From: the human T2T-CHM13v2.0 reference genome, Homo sapiens
Length of the DNA: 64,000 nucleotides
Assembly: GCF_009914755.1 (NCBI RefSeq)
Contig: NC_060926.1
Strand: one strand, 5' to 3'
Made by a program: the position numbers and the translations under genes. The notes beneath the pieces are model-generated. The model saw only the letters and a list, made by a program, of their open reading frames with translations. It searched no databases and was not told the origin of the DNA. This document shows, piece by piece, positions 4,660-62,990 of this stretch. The first letter of the stretch is position 1, and every line of letters begins with the position of its first letter.

Positions 4660-5232
4660 ACATATTTATGAGATACTGTGTTTTGTTATGTTTTTATACA
4701 TGTATACATTGCAGAAAAAATCAAAGTATTTAGCATATCTATCACCTCATACATAGTTATTTTTTTGTGGCGAGAACATTAAAAATCCTTTTCTAGCTAT
4801 TTTTAAATATACAATACAATATTGTTAACCACCATCACCTAACTGTGCAACAGAACACCAAAACCCATTCCTCTTATCTGACTGTGACTTTGTACCCATT
4901 GAACAACACCTATTTTCCTTCCTCCTCCCCTCTCCACCCTCTAGTAACCACTATTCTACTCTCTACTTCAATATTAACTTCTATAGATTCACATGTGAGT
5001 GAGATCATGTGGTATTTGTCATTCTGTGCCTGGATTATTTCATATATGACAATATCATCCAGCTTTATCCATGTTGCCTCAAATGACAGGATTTCCTTCT
5101 TTTTTATGGCTGAATAGCATTTTCTTTATTCATTGTTGATGCACACTTAGGTTGATTCTATATCTTGGCTATTGTGAATAATGCTGTAAAAATCATGGAA
5201 GTACAGATATCTCTTCAATGTACTGATTTCCT
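4660..5232 (-). mobile_element. Old L1 (L1MA-type) 3' fragment
   Basis: Typical antisense L1 3' end: 'catgtgagtgagatcatgtggtatttgtcattctgtgcctgg', 'ttctttttatggctgaatag', 'ttggctattgtgaataatgctg'. Confidence 0.8.
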
Positions 5233-22256: not shown

Positions 22257-22607
<351 letters not shown>

Positions 22608-24150: not shown

Positions 24151-24516
<366 letters not shown>

Positions 24517-27500
24517 CTTCTTTTTCTTTTTGTAAGGCAATAAAACTCAGCAAAAAAATTTTTTTGCAGGTTTTTTGAGAGATTAAGAGATAAAATTTAC
24601 ATAAAATTTGTATCATCTGAGTTAGTTTAACTCGGCTGATAAATAATATTATGAATATTAAATTTAAAAAGTGTATATGGCATACCAATATCAATATAAT
24701 TATAATGTCTGATTTTATTCCCAACAGAAAAAAATAGGCTTAAGTTTTTCTACTCCTTTAACATGATGGCTTTTTCTGCTACCATCCTAATATGATGATA
24801 ATATCAGCAATTATTAATCTATTTTTTATTCTTAAGCAAATTTTGCTGGTAAGCATATGAGTCTAATTCTTGTCTAGGAATTGTATAAAGTTAATTTGGG
24901 ATCAAGTGCTAGGTTGAAGTTTAATTAATCTAGTTTTATTGACTTGTTTAAGCACAGAACATGAGCATAAAATAAACCTTTGTTGTTATAAACATCTGAA
25001 ATATGAGGTGGTTTATAGCAGTACAATCTAAGAAAAGCGGTCTAATAAAGACAAAATAAATGGATAAACAGTTAAGAGTTATACAAATAATATATAATGT
25101 ATTGGGTTTGGTTTATTTGGTTATTCTTACCTAGTGATTATATTTAAGACCAAGAATATGTCCCAAAATCAAGGGAAAATAACATGATTACATCAGAGCT
25201 GCTTGATAATAGCTGCCCAATACACAACTACGTAATTGTTCTTTATTAAGCAGTGCCACTTGTACCTCGAAGCACAAACTAGAGTTTAAACTTGGACAGA
25301 AAAATATGATATGTGTTCCTTTTGTTCCCCGTGGCATGACTGGCATGGTGAAAGCTAAAGTAACCTACGACCTCTTACCTAGAATCATAAAGGATAGACA
25401 TTGATGTGACAGTTTTTCTCGGACTTTACTGCTCCAAAAGACATGCACATTTCAGATTTTGTTCTTTGAAAATATAACAAGGGGGAGAAAGCAAATCAGG
25501 GACATACAATGTCCTGACTTTTGAAATGTGGACAACACTGGATGCTGAAGTTGAATTGCTCAATATCCCTGCCGAAAAGTTGTGGTCTGTTTGAAATCAC
25601 TCATGACAACTTCCTTAGGCTCTTCTTAAGCATTCTCTAAGGGACCACAAGGTCACTGGTCCATGTGGAGGAGTGCTGCTCAGCCTGACAGCAGGACCAG
25701 TGAAGAGCAAATTGTGCAGCCAGCCTCCTTTCTACAAGGCCAATGTTTTGAGGAACCAAAGCCATAATTAGCCATCACAATGTAGAGGAATAATTCCTAC
25801 CTTTCTAAACCTTGTGACAGAAACAGAACTCATTATCTTCCTCCCAAACGTGTTGCAACAAAGGCTTCTCCAATACCTGTGCATTTTCTTATGTATTACT
25901 CACCCTAAGGACTTGGAAAATAATGCTGAACACTTAATAAAATAATTAGATTGGAACAATCACAAAACTGAAGAATATGACAAAGTGCTTAACTCAGATC
26001 ACTCTCTAAATGAATGTCCCTGTGGTACTTACATATTCACCTTGAATCCTTCTGCCTTAAAAAAAAAAAATCCACCCTAAAAATGTTTATAAGATCTACT
26101 TCCTGCCCATGTTTTCTAAGGTAATTGAGGGAGGACACCCTAAATAGAACTTGAGCTGGCTTTACATATTGTAGCCCCCTTCCCAGTCGCTATTACTGTC
26201 ACTGTCATTGCACTACTAACCTTTCGTTTATGCCAAAATTTACCTAATTTTCAATAACAAGCACTTTTTAAAAATACTCTTTTTTATTGTTGGACCCCTA
26301 GAAGTTCAAATTATAGCAAGTTCTGATTATTGTGTTTCTCGTCTATTGCAATGGCTTTAAAATTTTCATTTTCTGGGTTTACTATGTTGAAGACAATATT
26401 CTGTGTTCTTTATATATATTACATTTTTAATCCTCAAAACAATCTAAAGAGACAGATGTCATTAGCAATTTCCGTATTAAGATGAGAAAAGAGGTTCAGA
26501 GAAGAACAATTGAGCAAACAAAACAATGTGGAGTCCTGACAGCGTAGACGGTCCTCTATACTGTTTTTTGTGCCTTGTTTACCATTAAACCCACTAACCA
26601 TTTTTTAATTGAAAAATCTTTGTCTTCCTTTACATTGCAAATTAGAAGTCATTAAGAAATCTATTTTTTCAAACCTATGGGAACTTTTTCTATCAGATGA
26701 CTATGTCATTAAGACTTTTCTAAGACATACATATAGCTGTGACACTTCATATTTCAAATGTTATCAGTGTTCCCCTACTGCTATAGAATGAATTTCAAAC
26801 TCTAGCTAAGCATACCATATTCCTGAGAATTATTTCATGGTCTAATGTTATTGTCAAATACTATTTCACCAGCACCATTTATCTTACACCACTCAAATGC
26901 CTGAAGCACAGGCTGTATTTCTCCTTGCCTCATCTTTTTCCTTAAATAGACTCAGAGGCTTCAAAGGACGGGGGATATACCTGACTTTCCTCTTATTCTC
27001 CATCTATTTTTGAGAGACAATCACAAAGTAAAAACATACAACAAACAAAAGGCAAAGAGAAGAGAAAATGAAATAAATCAAGTTTTTCTAGTAAGTTAAG
27101 ACGGTGTATTAAGCCTGTCTAGTTCTTGACTTACAGATATTTAGTGTGAGTTCCAGAAAACTCAAGAAACATCATATAACAGTTTTAGAAAGTATCATAG
27201 AGATGAGAAAGCCGATTGAGAATCATAGTAAAATAAATCATTTTTCTATTATTTTCTGACTCTCCATTCTTTGAAAATTTATTAATGAAGGAAGATGTGC
27301 TGTTATAATTATGATAGAATGATAAGTGTATCATAAGCTGCCGTACTCCATAATACAATACAGGAACTAACACAGTAATGATTTAACAATATTCATTAAG
27401 AACATATTACATGGAGAATACATGCGACCCATTGGGGTAAAATACATAAATCAGACATAACCTCTTATTTGAAGAAATTTACAACCTGCTGGAGAGAAAC

Positions 27501-29366: not shown

Positions 29367-30677
29367 AAAGTAGAGAAAATTCAGATAATGGAACACTGGG
29401 CACCCATTAAAACTAAAAGCATTTAATTATACAAATTAACATGCAATGCTGTTTGTAATATATAGTAAATAAACATAAGAGTGTATCATAGGGTCTCATT
29501 TTTTAGTATATAATAATCTGCAAAAGTATATTTACATGAAGGAACTGAACGGAAACCAAAATAACAGTAGATAATACTAGGAAATGTGGATATTGTAAGA
29601 AATTCTCAGAATTGCTGATTTTTTATTTCTAAAAAAGTCTGTGGTCTCATAAATAATAAAATAAGGAAGGTGAATTTAATACTGGATTTGAAAAGTTTGT
29701 TTTTTAATTATGAGAGGAAATACTTTATATTATTCTCTGTTCAAATGGAGAAAGAATTGAGTTAGGTATCCTTAGGTATATAGAGAACCTTTACTAATTT
29801 CTCAGAAGAATTACTATTAAAAAAAAAGATCAGAAGAAAATGAAATATGTACAAAAATATGGACTTTCAAATATTTGCTACTTGACTACAATGCCGAAAC
29901 TTTAGCCAGGAGCTTCTTGGGAAAATAGAAGCTAGAGTATGGAATGCCCAGGGAAACTCCAACAAGTTACCTTAATAACACCATATATCACAGTGGTACA
30001 CCTTCAAAATTTAAAAATAAAAGCTAGTTTTAATAATAGTCAAAGTCACACAGAAATAAAAAAGACCTAGTGCCACAAAGCACAGATTTTAAGACTAATT
30101 TTATCTGTCCCCACATAGCATTTCTTTCCCATGGAAGTTTTTATATGTACATACTAGTATCATCATCTTAAAGAGGAAGAAACTAAGGTTTGGAGAGGCT
30201 AATAGGCTACACCAACAGTAATGGACGAATATGTATGTGAATCCAGGGAAGTCTGAATCCAGAACTTGTGTTCTTTCCTGTTAATGTTTCTTCTTGTGGA
30301 ATCAACAGAACTTCTTTACTGTCTGGCTCACCTTTGATAGTGAAGATACTGGACAATAAATGGGTCCCTCTAGTGTTGTCAAGATAGGAGACTGATGTGA
30401 GCAGAATAATAAATGTAAATATGCATTCGAAATCCAGAAAACAAGAGGAATACTTCTAAAGGGGGGGAGTCCCTGACCTCCTCACTCTCCTCTACTATGT
30501 CCCTTTGTGAATGCCCAAGCACTGGTGATTTACATCCAGGAGAAGTTTATTAGTACATTTCAATATCTCCCTAGTCCTCAGTGGTAGCAGTCTGCAAGAG
30601 GAGTGGTTGCTGTGCTGTGGAGGATATATAAACAAAAAGGGGCTATGGAAATGTGCGAAAACCGATAAAAATATGTT

Positions 30678-30968
30678 TGTTTATTTGTTTGTTTTCTTTT
30701 TGAGACAACATTGCCCAGGCTGAAATGCAGTGAAGCAATCACAGCTCACTGCAGCCTCAACTTCTCCGGCTCAGGTGATCCTCCCAGGTCAGTCTCCCAA
30801 GTAGCTAGAACCACAGGCGCACACCACCATGCCTGGTTAATTTTGGTAGAGATGGACCAACTTTTGCCATTTTCCTCAGGCTGGGCCCGAACTCCTGAGC
30901 TCAAGTGATCCACCTACCTAGGTATCCCAAAGTGCTGGGGTTACAGGCATGAGCCACCACGCCTGGTC
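30678..30968 (-). mobile_element. AluJ element, TSD aaaatatgtt
   Basis: 'cacagctcactgcagcctcaacttc...ggctcaggtgatcctccc' AluJ diagnostics; TSD 30668-30677 and 30971-30980. Confidence 0.9.
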
Positions 30969-31680: not shown

Positions 31681-32428
<748 letters not shown>

Positions 32429-44715: not shown

Positions 44716-45074
44716 GAGAATTTTACTAGTTGGCAAAGAGACTACATTGTCTAATACTTGTAAATAGATTTGATTTGACCAAAATAGCTTATTTATTAAC
44801 TAACATTGAAAACCAAAATTAAAATGTAATTTTTCATGTAAAATTTTGAAGCGCTTTTTTTTTTTATAACTATACCCCTGAAAAGACCCAAATAACTAGA
44901 AAAAAATGGATTAATATTCTGGAGGTTGATGAATGTCCAGGACCACACTCTAGCAAAGAGTAGTTTGCATTTAACTTAAAGTACTAAAGGTCAAAGTTAA
45001 AAACTTATCTGCAGTATGCTAATTATAAGTAATTTTGTGCATAAATTAAATCTTAGATTAAGATTAAAAAGATG

Positions 45075-45414
45075 GGCTGGGTGCGGTAGCTCACACCTGT
45101 AATTCCAGCACTTTGGGAGGCTGAGGTGGGTGGATCATCTGAGGTCAGGAGTTCGAGACCAGCCTAGCAAATATGGTGAAACCCCCTCTCTACTAAAAAT
45201 ACAAAAAATTAGCTGGATGTGGTGGTGGGCACCTGTAATGCCAGCTGTTCAGGAAGCTGAGGCAGGAGAATCGCTTGAACCCAGGAGGCAGAGGTTTCAG
45301 TGAGCCAAGATTGTGACATTGGAGTCACGTGACATTGGAGTGTAAACTCCAGCCTGGGCAACAAGAGTGAAACTCTATCTCTAAATAAATAAATAAATAA
45401 TAAAAAATAAAATG
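45075..45414 (+). mobile_element. AluSq-like element with (TAAA)n tail, TSD aaaagatg
   Basis: Full Alu, 'ggcaacaagagtgaaactc' diagnostic; TSD 45067-45074 and 45415-45422. Confidence 0.93.
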
Positions 45415-45434
45415 AAAAGATGAGTGCCTGTACA

Positions 45435-55441: not shown

Positions 55442-58400
55442 TCCAAATGTAGTCACTTGACCTTTGAACTAATCTAGCACTATTACAGACTAAGTGGCTT
55501 CCTATTCCCATGGTGCTCTGTACTTAAGGTGTATCGGATTCTGTGAAGCAACCCCTGCTACACTGGTTTTTCTCTTAATAGGTTATTTTCATATTATGGA
55601 GGATCTATATTGTGAAAAATTATTGTCTGTCTCTGGCATGACGTTACATTTTAATTTAACTTTGCTTTTATTTGTTGGAACTTTCACTTTATTTGTTGGA
55701 AAATGTAGTGGATTAAAAAATGTCTACATTTATTTAATCAGATTTATGATGTATTTTTGCATCTATAAAAATGAAATTAAATGCACTATTTCATATATTG
55801 CTTTCTATTTCTGCTATTATATATTCTTTATTTGATGATAGGCTATACGACCATAGAGTAAATTATAAATCTTTCCTCCTTTCTCTCATCTTTATACCCT
55901 TGAACTCAGAACATATACATTTAAAATTTGGGGATTTTTTTTTTTTCCTTGACAGCTGACAATGACATACTGACTCATAGTCTCTTTTGCCATTCTTATC
56001 TATAATAAGGATAAATACCAAATGTTTCTAGCAGTATAGCTACAAAAGAGGTTATATCTTTTATATAAAACAGACTCATAATACCAGTTTGTAGTGATTA
56101 AATCTTTAATAGTTAAACATAAAGGTTATCATATTATCTATAAGAAAGGAATTTAATTTCTTCTCTTTAAAGCATTTAAAGATTTCTGACTCAGCATTTT
56201 TTCAAAGCATGTTTAGTAGTAGACATTCCAAATTTGATATAAATAACCACGTTTAAAAGTTACTCTTAAATTTACATTTGAACTTTTAAAAGTGATGTTA
56301 GCAGACGCATTTAACTAGCAACAATTTGATTTGAGGTAAGCCTCAAATAAATATTTTTGTTTAGTCTGCATGTCTCTACATAATTTATGTGCTACATTGT
56401 TTTAAGTACTCAATTTTGTTTTCAGGTAATTATTTGTGAATCCATGCAGTTTACTTAACACCAAGTATAGCAGAATCACAGTCATGGCTTCTATTCATGA
56501 AAAGCCATGCATTGTTTTTTTTTCAGGGACAGATTTCCCAACAGATATTTAAATACAAATCCATTAAAAGGTTACTGTTAGCTGTGAGACATATCATTTT
56601 TCAACCTACAACTAAGTGACTTTGAGATGCCTTTCATTGTCTTTACACTGCTTTGTATATGTACTCTTCCTTACATTGTAAAAAGAAGGGTCAAAACATG
56701 TCTATAATGCTAACATGGCATAAAAGTAGAAGATTAAACCACCTTGGCCTGAGTAAAGGTGAAGCATTGTGAGATTAGAGTTGTCTCAATATCAGGTGAA
56801 GCTGGCATGGAAAAAAGTTCCTGCTATGATGCCAACAAGAGTAATTAAGCATTCTTAAAATTTTTTTATTCAGTAGTGCTCACCAAAATTACTAAATATA
56901 ATTACTAATATTTCAAGGGCAAGTTCCGTGGTGTACAGATAAAAGTTTATCAATAGTTTAATTTTATAAACATGCTGCTGAAATTTCAAACAATTATGTG
57001 AAAAATAATGGTATGCTTCTAAGTAGTATGAAATAAAGTCCATTTCTGATCTTTTATCATTTTTGACTATACAATTCGAAGTCCGCTTTATCTAACTTTT
57101 ACTCTAAAAAGATACATCAGTTGTTTTTCTATTCATCAAAGTTATACAAGCCAAGTGTCTTCAAAAAACTTTTATACTGATAAATCCCCAATGCCTAGAG
57201 CAATGAATGATATTTAATGTTGTTTAATACATATCAGTTGAATGAGTTAATTCTAATAATCAGCATTTGTAGTTTCAAATCACATATGAATTAATATCTG
57301 CTTGGAAAAACATACATTGGTTTCTAATAAATTTCCTTTTATGTATAAGCACGTACGCCTAAAATTATTTTCCTCTTATTATTTTTACTTTTTTTTTTAA
57401 TGAAGGCATAACATTAAAACAAAAATCTGTTTGAAAAGTCTAGTTTTACTATTGGGTCAAAATGGTCTTCAACAAATTTTTACAACCCTGACAATTTTTT
57501 TGAAATAATCTACGGTAAAAGAATAACTAAAATAATTAATTATTTTACCCTTACCTCAACATTCTCTATCATTATCACACTAGAAAATATATGTATCTAT
57601 TCCCTTCACATTGATTAAAATCTAATTTTATTTTTACACTTTTTTCCTTTAATCTTTGAAACTGGAATGTAAGCACCCAGTTTCTCATGGACCATCAAGG
57701 ATCTTCATGAGTTTTTAAGAAAATATGGCCCAGAACTCTGATCCTGCCTTTGGAGAGGGATCTTGCTAGAGCACAGAAAAATAACTGGGCCTACCAGTCT
57801 GTAAACAGGATCTTTCTACTTTGCTCACATGCATCCAAACTCCTAAATTCCAGGCACTGAATTCACTTGCAAGATTGATGAGGTATGCAAAACACTGTGG
57901 CCTGTTTAATATTCTAGTGGGGTAGATATTCATGAATGATATGAATATAAAGTGAAAAATGGCAAAGAGAAGTGCTGAGATTCTAGGAAAAAGGAGAGTT
58001 AAGAAGACAAAGTAGGGGGATTAAAGAGGTTTAGCAGACATTGAGGGTGTAATGTGTCACGTAAAAGAGGTATTAACAATTATAGCAGATGCACTTTGGA
58101 GGCAATAAACAGGTTTTCAAGGTTAGAAGAAAAGGTACATAAAGTAATGTGCTGCATTAATCCAGACAAGGGATGATAAGAACCTGAATGAAGACAACAC
58201 TTACTTTCTCATTAAGAGGAAAAGAGTTGGGAGAAAGTAGACAGGGCTCCAAAATGCTGTGCTAGTCTAAGTGTGAATGTTGTAAAGAATCTTAAATATT
58301 CAAATACTGAGGAAGGGGTTGGTTCTTATGGGTACTTTCACTTTCCAAATCACAATTCTTAAAGCTTTAGGCTCTGTTCGAATAATTGACCTTCCTATTA

Positions 58401-58652: not shown

Positions 58653-59077
58653 GGAGAAGCCCAGTTTTCAGAGTCAGATCCACAAAGCTAAAAGCTGTGG
58701 TTCCTATGCTCTCTAAATTGCAGATTAGGGAAAACTGCTTAATCTCATGTTGTTGGCACTTGCAAATTTGGACTAATAGTATTAATCTCAAAGGGTTGTG
58801 TGAACATTTGTTGAAAGGATACATATTCACATATTAGATAAAATAATGTGTCATAGCAACGTCTCTGGGATGAAAATATTACACATGTTTACTGAGTGTG
58901 ATTTATCTTGCCAGCCCTCCTGCTAATAGAAACAGGAAAAATAAATTTCCAAAGGCTTTCCCTTTGCATATGCTGTTCCCTCTTTGCATATGCTGTTCCC
59001 CCTTGCTGCTTACTCTTCTCATCTCTTGGCTTCTTGATTTCTTCTTATCTCAGCTTAGATACCACTTCAAGAAATTT

Positions 59078-59078
<1 letters not shown>
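58653..59078. repeat. Direct duplication, left copy (426 bp)
   Basis: About 95% identical to 59920-60409. Confidence 0.95.

Positions 59079-59082
<4 letters not shown>

Positions 59083-59132
<50 letters not shown>
59083..59132. repeat. (TA)n microsatellite in the L1 poly(A) tail
   Basis: About 25 TA units. Confidence 0.95.
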
Positions 59133-59136
<4 letters not shown>

Positions 59137-59919
59137 TATTATACTTTAAGTTCTAGGGTATATGTGCACAACGTGCAGGTTTGTTACATATGTATACATG
59201 TGTCGTGTTGGTGTGCTGCACCCATTAACTCGTCATTTACATTAGGTATATCTCCTAATGCTATCCCTCCTCACTCCCCCCACCCCACAACAGGCCCCGG
59301 TGTGTGATGTTCCCCTTCCTGTGTCCATGTGTTCTCATTGTTCAGTTCCCACCCATGACTGAGAACATGCAGCGTTTGGTTTCTTGTCCTTGCGATAGTT
59401 TGCTGAGAATGATGGTTTCCAGCTTCTTCCATGTCCGTACAAAGGACATGAACTCATCCTTTCTATGGCTGCATAGTATTCCATGGTGTATATGTGCCAC
59501 ATTTTCTTAATCCAGTCTATCATTGTTGGTCATTTGGGTTGGTTCCAAGTGTTTGCTATTGTGAATAGTGCCACAATAAACATATGTGTGCATGTTTCTT
59601 AATAGCAGCATGATTTATAGTCCTTTGGGTATATACCCAGTAATGGGATGGCTGGGTCAAATGGTATTTCTAGTTCTAGATCACTGAGGAATCACCACAC
59701 TGTCTTCCACAATGGTTGAACTAGTTTACAGTCCCACCAACAGTGTAAAAGTGTTCCTATTTCTCCACATCCTCTCCAGCACCTGTTGTTTCCTGACTTT
59801 TTAATGATCACCCTTCTAAGTGGTGTGAGATGGTATCTCACTGTGGTTTTGATTTGCATTTCTCTGATGGCCAGTGATGATGAGCATTTTTTCATGTGTC
59901 AGTTAGCTGCATAAATGTC
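59133..59919 (-). mobile_element. 5'-truncated L1PA (approximately PA4/PA5): 3' UTR and ORF2 C-terminal fragment
   Basis: 'ttattatactttaagttctaggg'; ORF2 remnants [13 protein letters not shown] and [43 protein letters not shown]. Confidence 0.97.
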
Positions 59920-60409
59920 GGAGAAGCCTAGTTTTCAGAGTCAGATCCACAAAGCTAAAAACTGTGGTTCCTGTGCTCTCTAAATTGCAGATTAGGGAAA
60001 ACTGTTTAATCTCATGTTGTTGGCACTTGCAAATTTGGACTAATAGTATTAATCTCAAAGGGTTGTGTGAGCATTTGTTGAAAGGATACATATTCACATA
60101 TTAGATAAAATAACGTGTCATAGCAACATCTCTGGTATTAAAACATTACACATGTTTACTGAGTGTGATTTCTCTTGCCAGCTCTCCTGTAGAAAAATCT
60201 AATAGAAACAGGAAAAATAAATTTCTGAAGGCTTTCCCTTTGCATATGCTGTTCCCTCTTTGCATATGCTGCTCCCCCTTGCTACTTCCGCTTTGCATAT
60301 GCTGTTCCTTTGTGTATGCTGTTCCCCTTTGCTGCTTCCCTTTCTCATCTCCTTAGCTTCTTGATTTCTTGTGATTTCAGCTTAGACACCACTTCCTTCA
60401 AGAAATTTT
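59920..60409. repeat. Direct duplication, right copy (490 bp, with extra ctttgcatatgctgttcc units)
   Basis: About 95% identical to 58653-59078, plus insertions. Confidence 0.95.
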
Positions 60410-62689
60410 CTAAAGGCTAAACTCTGTGGTCTTTCTGAAGGTTCTAGTAGCCTCTGTGTTTCATTAAATTGACCTATAATAACTCGTTTCCTTTTTAGAA
60501 TCAGACATTACACTGTGAGTTTATTGAGAATAGAAAATGTTTCTGACCTCACTATTTCCTTTCTTAATGCCGAACATAGTGACAGGCTCATTGTAAACAT
60601 CAAAACATATTCACTGATGAACTGACTCATGGGATAAAGCTACCCTAGAAGACAAATGGTAAAAATAATCCCATCGTGTCATCAAATACGATAGGCTTAT
60701 ATCTATAGTGCATAATTGTTTTATACGTTACTTGATAGTCTGTGGTTCTAATACCGATTGCAAAACATGATATCTTTGGATTACTGTCAGGTACTTCTAA
60801 CTCTGTAAGTAGGGACATTACTTAATGTCTGTACTTACTGGAACCAGGGAGAATAAGCTGTACAGGTATACTTCTGATAAGTCTAGTTCTAATTGAAATT
60901 ATAATGGTTCTGCAAGCAGATTACCAGAGGACTTTGAAAGTATCAGTGAGAGAACAAGCAGGTTTTCACTTAATTTGACTACCTATTCCTTAGACACAGA
61001 TCCAACTGGTCTTAATTGGCCTGGTTGGCCTAATGTTATTATCATTTAATCACAAATAACTTCAGATATTGGTTAACCTCATGCTTAACACCTAGATTTA
61101 AATCCAAAATGTCATGCTCACTTGTTTATTTTTATTTATACTAGTAATTCTTGTTCTAGAATAGTGAGAAGTGCCGCTATATTTGTTCTTTAACAACTTA
61201 CTTAAAGAATACTTGATTTTACTTTTACCATTATTTATCTTTGCCTCTCCTCCCTGGGCTGCTGCTGTTAAAATTAATTTGCATTTCAGACCTCAGGACT
61301 TTATATTGCTATTAGAGTTATGAAATGTTTTTACTCAGCACAACTAAGAGCTGATGTTTTCCCTCCCACTAATGGACCTTTAATTAGGCACTGTAATGAA
61401 CCATTCTGTCATTCCTTCTTTTATAGAGAGAAGATTTTGTATATGCAAGATACAATTTTGACAGAACACCAGGTCCACTGAACCTTGTCGGCTTACATCT
61501 AATAGATTCTAAATTTATTATGTTTTTGTCAGCTGTTGAATTTGTCATTTTAATGCCACTGTCCACAGACTTATTATGCTGCCAAAAAAACAGCATCACC
61601 ATACAGCAAGAATGTTTGTTGACATCTTGATCAACAACTCCTGGGGTCCAATTCTGACTATAATATTACTACTTCGGGACCTTGAGCAAGTTATTTAACC
61701 TCTGTCTAAGGATTAATTGGTTAATTTTAATAAGTGCTTTGCAGTAAAAGGTGGGAAGCGCTCTGACTACTAATAGTGATAATAAAATTATAATGCAGCT
61801 CTTTATAAAGCATCAGGCTACCTCAGACTGTGATTCTATTAAGTTGTCAATTAAAACATAAGCTAACTGAATTTATTCTTTGGAAGGATCCAAACTGCTA
61901 TACAAACTATGGCCACATAATATTTTTAAACTTAGTTTAAAAAATTAATTAAGAATACTGTTGTTTCAACTAATGAAAAGATAAAAACAAGAGGGGAAAA
62001 TGACATGTTCTATGTTGGTCTACCAATTGGGAACCAAAAGACAGAGGAGAAAATACTAGCTCTAGTTGAACCACATACAGTTACAAGATCATTGAACACT
62101 GATTAAATGTAATTTTACATTTAAAGTAAATTGATCTTAAATTGATCTTTTGTTAACATTTATTCAAATCATTTATTTTTATTTATGTATTTATTTGTGT
62201 GATTCTTTGTTCCTTTGTTCATTTGGCAAGTGCCATTGTTGGTTGTAGTCTCAAAAAGATCCCAGACAAGTAAGGGGAATGTACATAATCAACAGGTAAA
62301 AATGATCAGAGTCAGAAGAGGAGGGAGAGGTTGATTCAAACTGAGAATTTGAACAATTTCAAAAAGCAAATGGTGTTTAAGCTGAGCAGAGTCACAATGT
62401 CAGGGAAGCTGGCTCTATATAGGGAAGGGCAATTGGTGTGGTTTTACTAGAATAAAGGAGAGGCTGCAGACCTAGGATGGATAGTAATAGGGGTCTCCAT
62501 TAAGTGGGATAGTAGTGTTGTCCTTCATTTGCATGGAATCATTTGGGGTCATGACAATGGTGGAACAGAAAATAAACACACGTGAGTTAGTGGGTGGAAG
62601 TTGTGTTGAGATAGTCTGCTGTGTTGTGAGGAGGGGAATGAGAGTGGTGAAGATGTGAGCAATACATGAGAAAGGATAATTAGTGTTAT

Positions 62690-62990
<301 letters not shown>

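What the first reader, a model, noticed from the sequence alone, without database searches (positions are those of the whole stretch)
58653..60409. L1PA insertion flanked by a ~430-490 bp direct duplication (giant target-site duplication)
Seen: 58653-59078 and 59920-60409 are direct copies (about 12 substitutions in the first ~270 aligned bp) and exactly bracket a 5'-truncated minus-strand L1 with its (TA)n tail. On the L1 sense strand each copy starts with AAAATTTCTTG, as TPRT geometry predicts. The outer junction reads ttttct/aa, an L1-endonuclease-like site. The left copy continues an upstream MIR-like sequence and the right copy appears to continue into downstream L2-like sequence, so the ancestral locus probably had one copy. 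Established: L1 TSDs are normally about 7-20 bp. Inference: a rare insertion with a distant second-strand nick or replication-coupled repair; copy divergence appears compatible with L1PA4/5 age. The pair is also a substrate for a ~1.3 kb recombination deletion.
Basis: partly seen in the sequence, partly recalled or inferred. Interest (0 to 1): 0.7.

Follow-up and report, generated by a model that had tools for sequence, protein, structure and literature searches.

The report
LINE-1 with giant target-site duplication
In an intron of the human LRP1B gene, a truncated LINE-1 jumping gene sits exactly between two copies of the same 430-490 base stretch, likely duplicated when it inserted some 10-25 million years ago: a rare inherited example of an insertion accident otherwise described mainly in cultured and cancer cells.

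Summary
Observation confirmed. Window 58653-59078 (426 bp) and 59920-60409 (490 bp) are direct copies (23 substitutions in 426 columns, 4 indels) of a sequence found nowhere else in the genome search. They abut a 5'-truncated minus-strand L1 (59135-59919) and its (TA)n tail with no spacer and no ordinary short TSD. The duplicate ends at a T-run that is both the tail junction and an endonuclease-like site. Copy divergence (5.4%) matches divergence among the L1's closest paralogs (5.1%), so both can be the same age. Of 39 control L1s whose 5' end was in view, 22 had 10-24 bp TSDs and none a long one. Best reading (0.75): one insertion event with a second break about 490 bp away. Main rival (0.15): normal insertion, then repair or unequal exchange. 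No primate orthologs were available, so the decisive test is open; the MIR/L2 continuity claims could not be verified. Large L1 TSDs are known from cell culture and tumours, and long TSDs from germline HERV-K; I found no description of this locus or germline L1 survey. New member of a known kind; no evidence of function.

The parts
58653..59078 (+). Left copy of the duplicated target (3' TSD on the L1 sense strand), 426 bp
59079..59134 (-). L1 poly(A)-derived tail, now mostly a (TA)25.5 microsatellite (59083-59133)
   Evidence: origin from the A-tail is inferred
59135..59919 (-). 5'-truncated primate L1: 3' UTR plus broken end of ORF2, 785 bp; 93-95% identical to its closest paralogs; likely L1PA5 (subfamily name from recalled diagnostics, no library test)
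59919..59920 (.). L1 5' junction: blunt, 0 bp microhomology; a 6-mer at 59921-59926 equals L1 sequence 7 nt further on (chance about 3.5%)
59920..60409 (+). Right copy of the duplicated target (5' TSD on the L1 sense strand), 490 bp, with 9, 50, 1 and 4 bp more than the left copy
60406..60413 (+). Endonuclease-like site TTTTCTAA at the outer end of the duplicate; inferred first nick after 60409 (TTTT/CT) or 60411 (TTCT/AA)
   Evidence: nick position inferred
60236..60343 (+). Imperfect 20/50 bp tandem array in the right copy; the left copy (58960-59014) has one 50 bp unit fewer

Best explanation
A truncated LINE-1 is bracketed exactly by two copies of a unique 430-490 bp stretch, and the duplication was likely made during the insertion itself, as an oversized target-site duplication. 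Shown: the structure, the exact junctions, the lack of a short TSD, the T-rich site, compatible divergences. Inferred steps: (1) L1 ORF2p nicked the + strand at the right end of the single ancestral copy (TTTT/CT or TTCT/AA); (2) the freed T-run primed reverse transcription on the poly(A) tail and about 785 nt of cDNA were made; (3) instead of the usual second nick about 15 bp away, the opposite strand was broken about 490 bp to the left, in a break not set by ORF2p; (4) the cDNA end was joined bluntly to that end and both gaps were filled, leaving the 490 bp on both sides; (5) the copies then drifted neutrally for roughly 10-25 My, the left one likely losing 64 bp, and the tail became (TA)n. 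Whether step 3 used a distant nick on the same chromatid, break-induced replication or a break on the sister chromatid cannot be told from the sequence. No function is implied.
For: Copies abut the L1 at both ends with no spacer; L1 homology ends at the first base of the right copy. No ordinary TSD, whereas 22 of 39 control L1s with the 5' end in view show one of 10-24 bp. The duplicate ends in the T-run that joins the tail, and the outer junction is endonuclease-like; a random position has such a site within 0 to +2 nt in 1.6% (strict motifs) or 5.6% (loose) of the window (motif lists are mine, from recall). Ages agree: copy-to-copy 5.4%, paralog-to-paralog 5.1% (406 pairs), self-to-paralog 6.0%; half the copy distance 0.028 equals the median terminal branch 0.028 in the L1 tree. 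No L1 remainder lies beyond the right copy. The same product is documented for de novo L1 insertions: TSDs over 100 bp in up to 10% of HeLa events and 57-91% in NER-deficient cells (PMC5223499); small tandem duplications regarded as large TSDs (bioRxiv 2024.12.14.628481).
Against: No ortholog could be examined, so co-appearance is not shown. This L1's own divergence (33 of 785 sites from the paralog majority; terminal branch 0.039) is higher than the 0.028 per duplicate copy, the direction expected if the duplication were younger, though not significant (p 0.11 all sites, 0.20 non-CpG, 0.48 after dropping 7 non-CpG sites shared with 5 or more paralogs). The paralogs were chosen as nearest hits, which biases their distances down. 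The site is a variant, not the TTTT/AA consensus. A missing short TSD is weak alone: 17 of the 39 controls also showed none. The displaced 6-mer at the 5' junction could hint at a later repair event.
Confidence: 0.75

Rival explanations
1. Two steps. A longer L1 first inserted normally with a short TSD. Later a break inside the L1 was repaired by copying the neighbouring 490 bp and rejoining at the short TSD (repair-mediated duplication with loss of the L1 5' part), or by a non-homologous exchange with the still-segregating empty allele. The human sequence would be identical.
For: Proximal repair-mediated duplications are common in primates (824 cases, up to 619 bp, about 1.2 kb apart; PMC2671141), and one lies about 117 kb away in LRP1B. 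Copy divergence is slightly lower than this L1's own divergence. Displaced 6-mer match at the junction, chance 3.5%.
Against: Needs the copied tract to end exactly at the old TSD and all remaining L1 to be lost; no L1 remnant follows the right copy, whereas those duplications are defined by a split element on both sides. True microhomology at the junction is 0 bp. The age difference is not significant. A one-step route is documented.
Confidence: 0.15
2. A tandem duplication existed first and the L1 later landed at its head-to-tail junction without making a TSD.
For: Tandem duplications are common; 17 of 39 controls had no detectable TSD. The same 'pseudo-TSD' caveat is raised for HERV-K (PMC5488345).
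Against: Needs base-exact targeting of the junction. That junction would read TTTT(CT) followed by GGAG, a poorer site than the outer one. The copies are not more diverged than the L1.
Confidence: 0.05
3. One event, but the right copy was made by reverse transcriptase switching from L1 RNA to nascent LRP1B pre-mRNA from this intron, then resolved by homology.
For: L1 and LRP1B are both on the minus strand, so the pre-mRNA is the right template polarity (hub annotation; sequence). L1 chimeras with cellular RNAs are documented (PMC13174262).
Against: Orientation match is a coin toss. In the passages I read, published chimeras carry their own short TSD around the whole insert and mostly spliced or small RNAs; none here. 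The locus was not found in that paper's 6 readable supplements.
Confidence: 0.05

Closest known systems
De novo L1 insertions with large TSDs in cultured cells (Servant et al. 2017, PMC5223499; Gilbert 2002/2005 and Symer 2002 as cited there)
   Same: 5'-truncated L1 with tail, flanked by a direct duplication over 100 bp; size within the reported 5 bp-5.3 kb range; explained by a distant second nick.
   Different: Those are engineered, somatic, often repair-deficient events; this one is endogenous, inherited and about 10-25 My old.
L1-associated tandem duplications in tumours and L1-induced clones (bioRxiv 2024.12.14.628481; PMC7058536)
   Same: Direct duplication with an L1 bridging the junction and an endonuclease motif at the L1 3' end; proposed break-induced replication or sister-chromatid capture.
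   Different: Somatic; 1-10 kb or 22.6 Mb, against 0.49 kb here.
HERV-K (HML-2) insertions with long TSDs in the human reference (Kahyo et al. 2017, PMC5488345)
   Same: Germline element flanked by 61-450 bp direct copies; same pseudo-TSD and recombination caveats.
   Different: Integrase-driven LTR elements, 0-3 mismatches (young); here a TPRT element with 5.4% divergence.
Repair-mediated duplications (Pace et al. 2009, PMC2671141)
   Same: Unique sequence copied about 1.2 kb away in the same region; size under 619 bp; similar divergence.
   Different: Those interrupt an element that continues on both sides; here the copy replaces the L1 5' end and stops exactly at the insertion site. This locus is not in their table.

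Membership tests
L1 (TPRT) insertion with large TSD | L1 3' end with poly(A)-derived tail | tested here: met
   59135-59919 matches 29 paralogs from their 3' end; tail 59079-59134
L1 (TPRT) insertion with large TSD | Direct copies over 100 bp abutting both ends of the insert | tested here: met
   426 and 490 bp, no spacer
L1 (TPRT) insertion with large TSD | Endonuclease motif at the tail-side end of the duplicate | tested here: met
   TTTT|CTAA; a variant site, chance 1.6-5.6%; similar ends in controls such as L043
L1 (TPRT) insertion with large TSD | No additional short TSD | tested here: met
   weak, as 17 of 39 controls also lack one
L1 (TPRT) insertion with large TSD | Duplication and L1 of the same age | tested here: inconclusive
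   Compatible (p 0.11-0.48) but intervals span 10-25 My and 17-36 My
L1 (TPRT) insertion with large TSD | Pre-insertion allele with one copy and no L1 | not testable with these tools
   No primate relatives are held (header)
L1PA5 (or L1PA4) subfamily | Diagnostic 3' positions against subfamily consensus | not testable with these tools
   No repeat library; the name rests on recall and on 93-95% paralog identity
Repair-mediated duplication (Pace 2009) | Copy interrupts an element that resumes after it | tested here: not met
   No L1 match after 60409 (library covers the 3' 3.2 kb of L1, including the immediate continuation)
Repair-mediated duplication (Pace 2009) | Microhomology, filler or deletion at breakpoints | tested here: inconclusive
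   0 bp microhomology, no filler; displaced 6-mer at 3.5% chance
L1 3' transduction | Flank carried from a source element elsewhere, followed by a second poly(A) and a short TSD | tested here: not met
   Unit has no other genomic copy; no second tail at 58653
   Genome searches found only the locus; local scans scored 43 vs null 38 and 35 vs null 33; no significant hit across the junctions

The most novel reading that the evidence does not exclude
Giant-TSD L1 insertions are a real, uncounted germline class: TSD finders that cap at 20-30 bp miss them, so hundreds may sit in primate genomes as a source of 0.1-5 kb tandem duplications. This locus would be a dated fossil of the class, with error-prone fill-in recorded in one copy (all four length differences shorten the left copy).
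Probability: 0.25. Interest if true: 0.65.

Novelty: new member of a known kind. Interest (0 to 1): 0.42.

Why it matters
Kojima 2010 (PMC2912911) notes that extremely long L1 TSDs had been put down to peculiarities of HeLa cells, that his survey covered only 5-30 bp, and that longer ones need study in vivo; a 2026 pipeline still accepts only 7-30 bp (PMC13174262). An inherited, millions-of-years-old example shows the outcome can occur in, and survive, the germline, and it defines a simple genome-wide search. One intronic case has no shown effect on LRP1B, so its value is as a lead on how the second strand of an L1 insertion is cut and joined.

Tried and rejected
Assembly artefact or recent collapse: rejected, the copies differ by 23 substitutions and 4 indels. 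Dispersed repeat or transduction: no other copy. Ordinary TSD: none. Gene conversion between copies: no evidence (longest identical run 65 bp, p 0.43; 7 vs 16 mismatches in the two halves, p 0.09). Microhomology-mediated joining: 0 bp at the junction; displaced 6-mer only suggestive. MIR/L2 test: four attempts, all inconclusive. The LRP1B row in Pace 2009 Table S1 looked similar (offset about 1.27-1.29 kb, 6.2%) but is a different locus about 117 kb away. Subfamily primers (PMC12432230) target regions absent from this fragment. The control survey stayed at 59 loci, so the background bound is loose. Khan 2006 and Gilbert 2005 were not held. Earlier scan findings were not open.

Full report
1. 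Observation. The sequence, repeat search and self-BLAST show direct copies at 58653-59078 and 59920-60409. Global alignment gives 23 substitutions in 426 columns (5.4%; 12 in the first 270 bp) and four length differences of 9, 50, 1 and 4 bp, all in favour of the right copy. It is the only high-identity long pair in the window; the other long pairs are Alu-type at 66-83%. In the genome search the unit matched only this locus and one 42 bp stretch elsewhere; this search is insensitive to old repeats.

2. The insert. 59135-59919 is the 3' 785 bp of a primate L1 on the minus strand, with stops in all frames; 40 of 6,031 candidates were scored and the 29 fetched paralogs are 93-95% identical. All 29 align to 59919 and then continue with L1 sequence, while the window switches to the first base of the right copy. 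The junction has 0 bp microhomology and no filler; a 6-mer one base into the copy equals L1 sequence 7 nt further on, which 293 of 8,286 sampled window positions would also give (3.5%). The tail (59079-59134) is now mainly (TA)25.5 and joins the T-run that ends the left copy. The right copy ends TTTT|CTAAAG. No short TSD was found. L1PA5 is my label from recalled diagnostic bases; no repeat library was available. Most L1PA5 copies date to around the ape/Old World monkey split (PMC13174262 section 9).

3. Dating. Copy-to-copy distance is 5.4% (CI 3.5-8.0), or 16.5 My (10-25) at the 0.17% per My used in PMC13174262. Paralog-to-paralog distance is 5.1% over 406 pairs; self-to-paralog 6.0%. In the tree of 30 copies the median terminal branch is 0.028, the same as half the copy distance; this copy's own branch is 0.039. 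Against my reading, this L1 differs from the paralog majority at 33 of 785 sites (25 My, CI 17-36), more than the duplicate would predict, but equal rates are not rejected (p 0.11, 0.20 non-CpG, 0.48 after dropping 7 shared non-CpG sites). The paralogs are nearest hits, so their distances run low. Ages are compatible, not proven equal.

4. Background. I examined 59 control L1 loci: 29 paralogs and the first 30 of 7,083 genomic matches to a 3'-end pattern, all on contig 1. In 15 the 5' end was out of view and 5 were inverted or unresolved; these 20 were dropped. Of the other 39, 22 had a 10-24 bp TSD at the junction, 17 none that I could find (some may be unresolved inversions), and 0 a long duplication at 86% identity or more within 1.5 kb of the tail. 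The 95% upper bound is 7.4% (12.7% on the 22 surest). The locus itself was detected by the same test. TSD calls were made by eye from the script output. In population data canonical insertions have TSDs of median 21 bp (PMC12350158).

5. Flanks. From recall the 3' half of the unit looks L2-like. The point does not separate the models. The 50 bp difference lies in an imperfect array whose two right-copy units differ at 6 of 50 sites plus a 3 bp gap, more than expected after insertion, so loss from the left copy is likelier and the ancestral target was probably about 490 bp (inference).

6. Mechanism. Standard TPRT geometry predicts that the duplicate ends, on the nicked strand, at the T-run that primes the tail; this holds. 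I infer a + strand nick at 60409-60411 of the single ancestral copy, about 785 nt of cDNA, an opposite-strand break about 490 bp to the left, blunt joining and fill-in (0.75). Rivals: ordinary insertion followed by repair copying or unequal exchange (0.15); a prior tandem duplication hit at its junction (0.05); template switch to LRP1B pre-mRNA (0.05). Four of four indels shortening one copy would fit error-prone fill-in but has a 1 in 8 chance. LRP1B is reported as a fragile-site gene and the gene most often hit by somatic insertions in colorectal tumours (19 in 202; PMC6731219), a context that suits stray breaks but is not evidence for this event. Recombination between the copies would delete 1,267-1,331 bp; the longest identical run is 65 bp, and six CHM13 coordinate prefixes gave no hit in 3 supplementary files of PMC12350158, which may not hold the full call set.

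7. What is known. Large L1 TSDs: up to 10% in HeLa, 57-91% in NER-deficient cells, median 1,495 bp, distant-nick model (PMC5223499, passages). Small tandem duplications as large TSDs by break-induced replication (bioRxiv 2024.12.14.628481, passages and section 12; supplements closed). A 22.6 Mb L1-bridged duplication by sister-chromatid capture (PMC7058536, one passage). Germline long TSDs of 61-450 bp for HERV-K (PMC5488345, passages). Repair-mediated duplications (PMC2671141, passages, section 6, table rows). Kojima 2010 states that long TSDs in vivo were not surveyed (PMC2912911, passages). Passages of PMC13756887, PMC13526784, PMC12432230, bioRxiv 522623 and 083295 added nothing decisive. 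Gilbert 2005 and Khan 2006 were not held and are known only through citing papers.

8. Is this locus in print? Nine literature searches showed no description of it and no germline survey of long L1 TSDs; the library lacks most subscription papers. It is absent from 6 readable supplements of PMC13174262 (hg38 position estimated from recalled gene coordinates, one file too large) and from the Pace table (the recalled hg18 offset was checked by finding that table's other LRP1B duplication where predicted).

9. Verdict. Real, exactly as described, rare, and most likely a giant TSD. It is a new germline member of a known kind, with no sign of function; the ortholog test is outstanding. Interest 0.42.

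Noticed in passing
L069:3515-3634 and 4794-4906 (G000:C2 about 140,854,500-140,855,900, outside the window): A second small direct duplication in LRP1B (about 120 bp, 1.28 kb apart, no young L1 between the copies); it matches the repair-mediated duplication listed in Pace 2009 Table S1 row 500 (present in human, chimpanzee, orangutan).
   Followed up: yes
window 59083-59133: Uninterrupted (TA)25.5 tract at the L1 tail, inside a reported fragile-site gene and between direct repeats; long TA tracts can form secondary structures (own knowledge). Length polymorphism not checked.
   Followed up: no
window 59135-59140: The L1 is in sense orientation to LRP1B and keeps an AATAAA before its tail; premature polyadenylation is possible but untested.
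   Followed up: no
L044 and L035: Control loci with odd structure: L044 has a 628 bp L1 with a 22 bp TSD followed at once by more L1; L035 has a second copy of the first 45 bp of the L1 3' end about 1.5 kb away.
   Followed up: no
window 4990-5121; 22265-22592, 24178-24525, 30676-30966, 31961-32308, 45059-45418, 62680-62989: An older L1 3' fragment (71% to the paralogs) and six Alu-sized mutually similar elements (66-83%); ordinary.
   Followed up: partly
window 55658-55701: Two copies of a 21 bp unit; minor tandem repeat.
   Followed up: no
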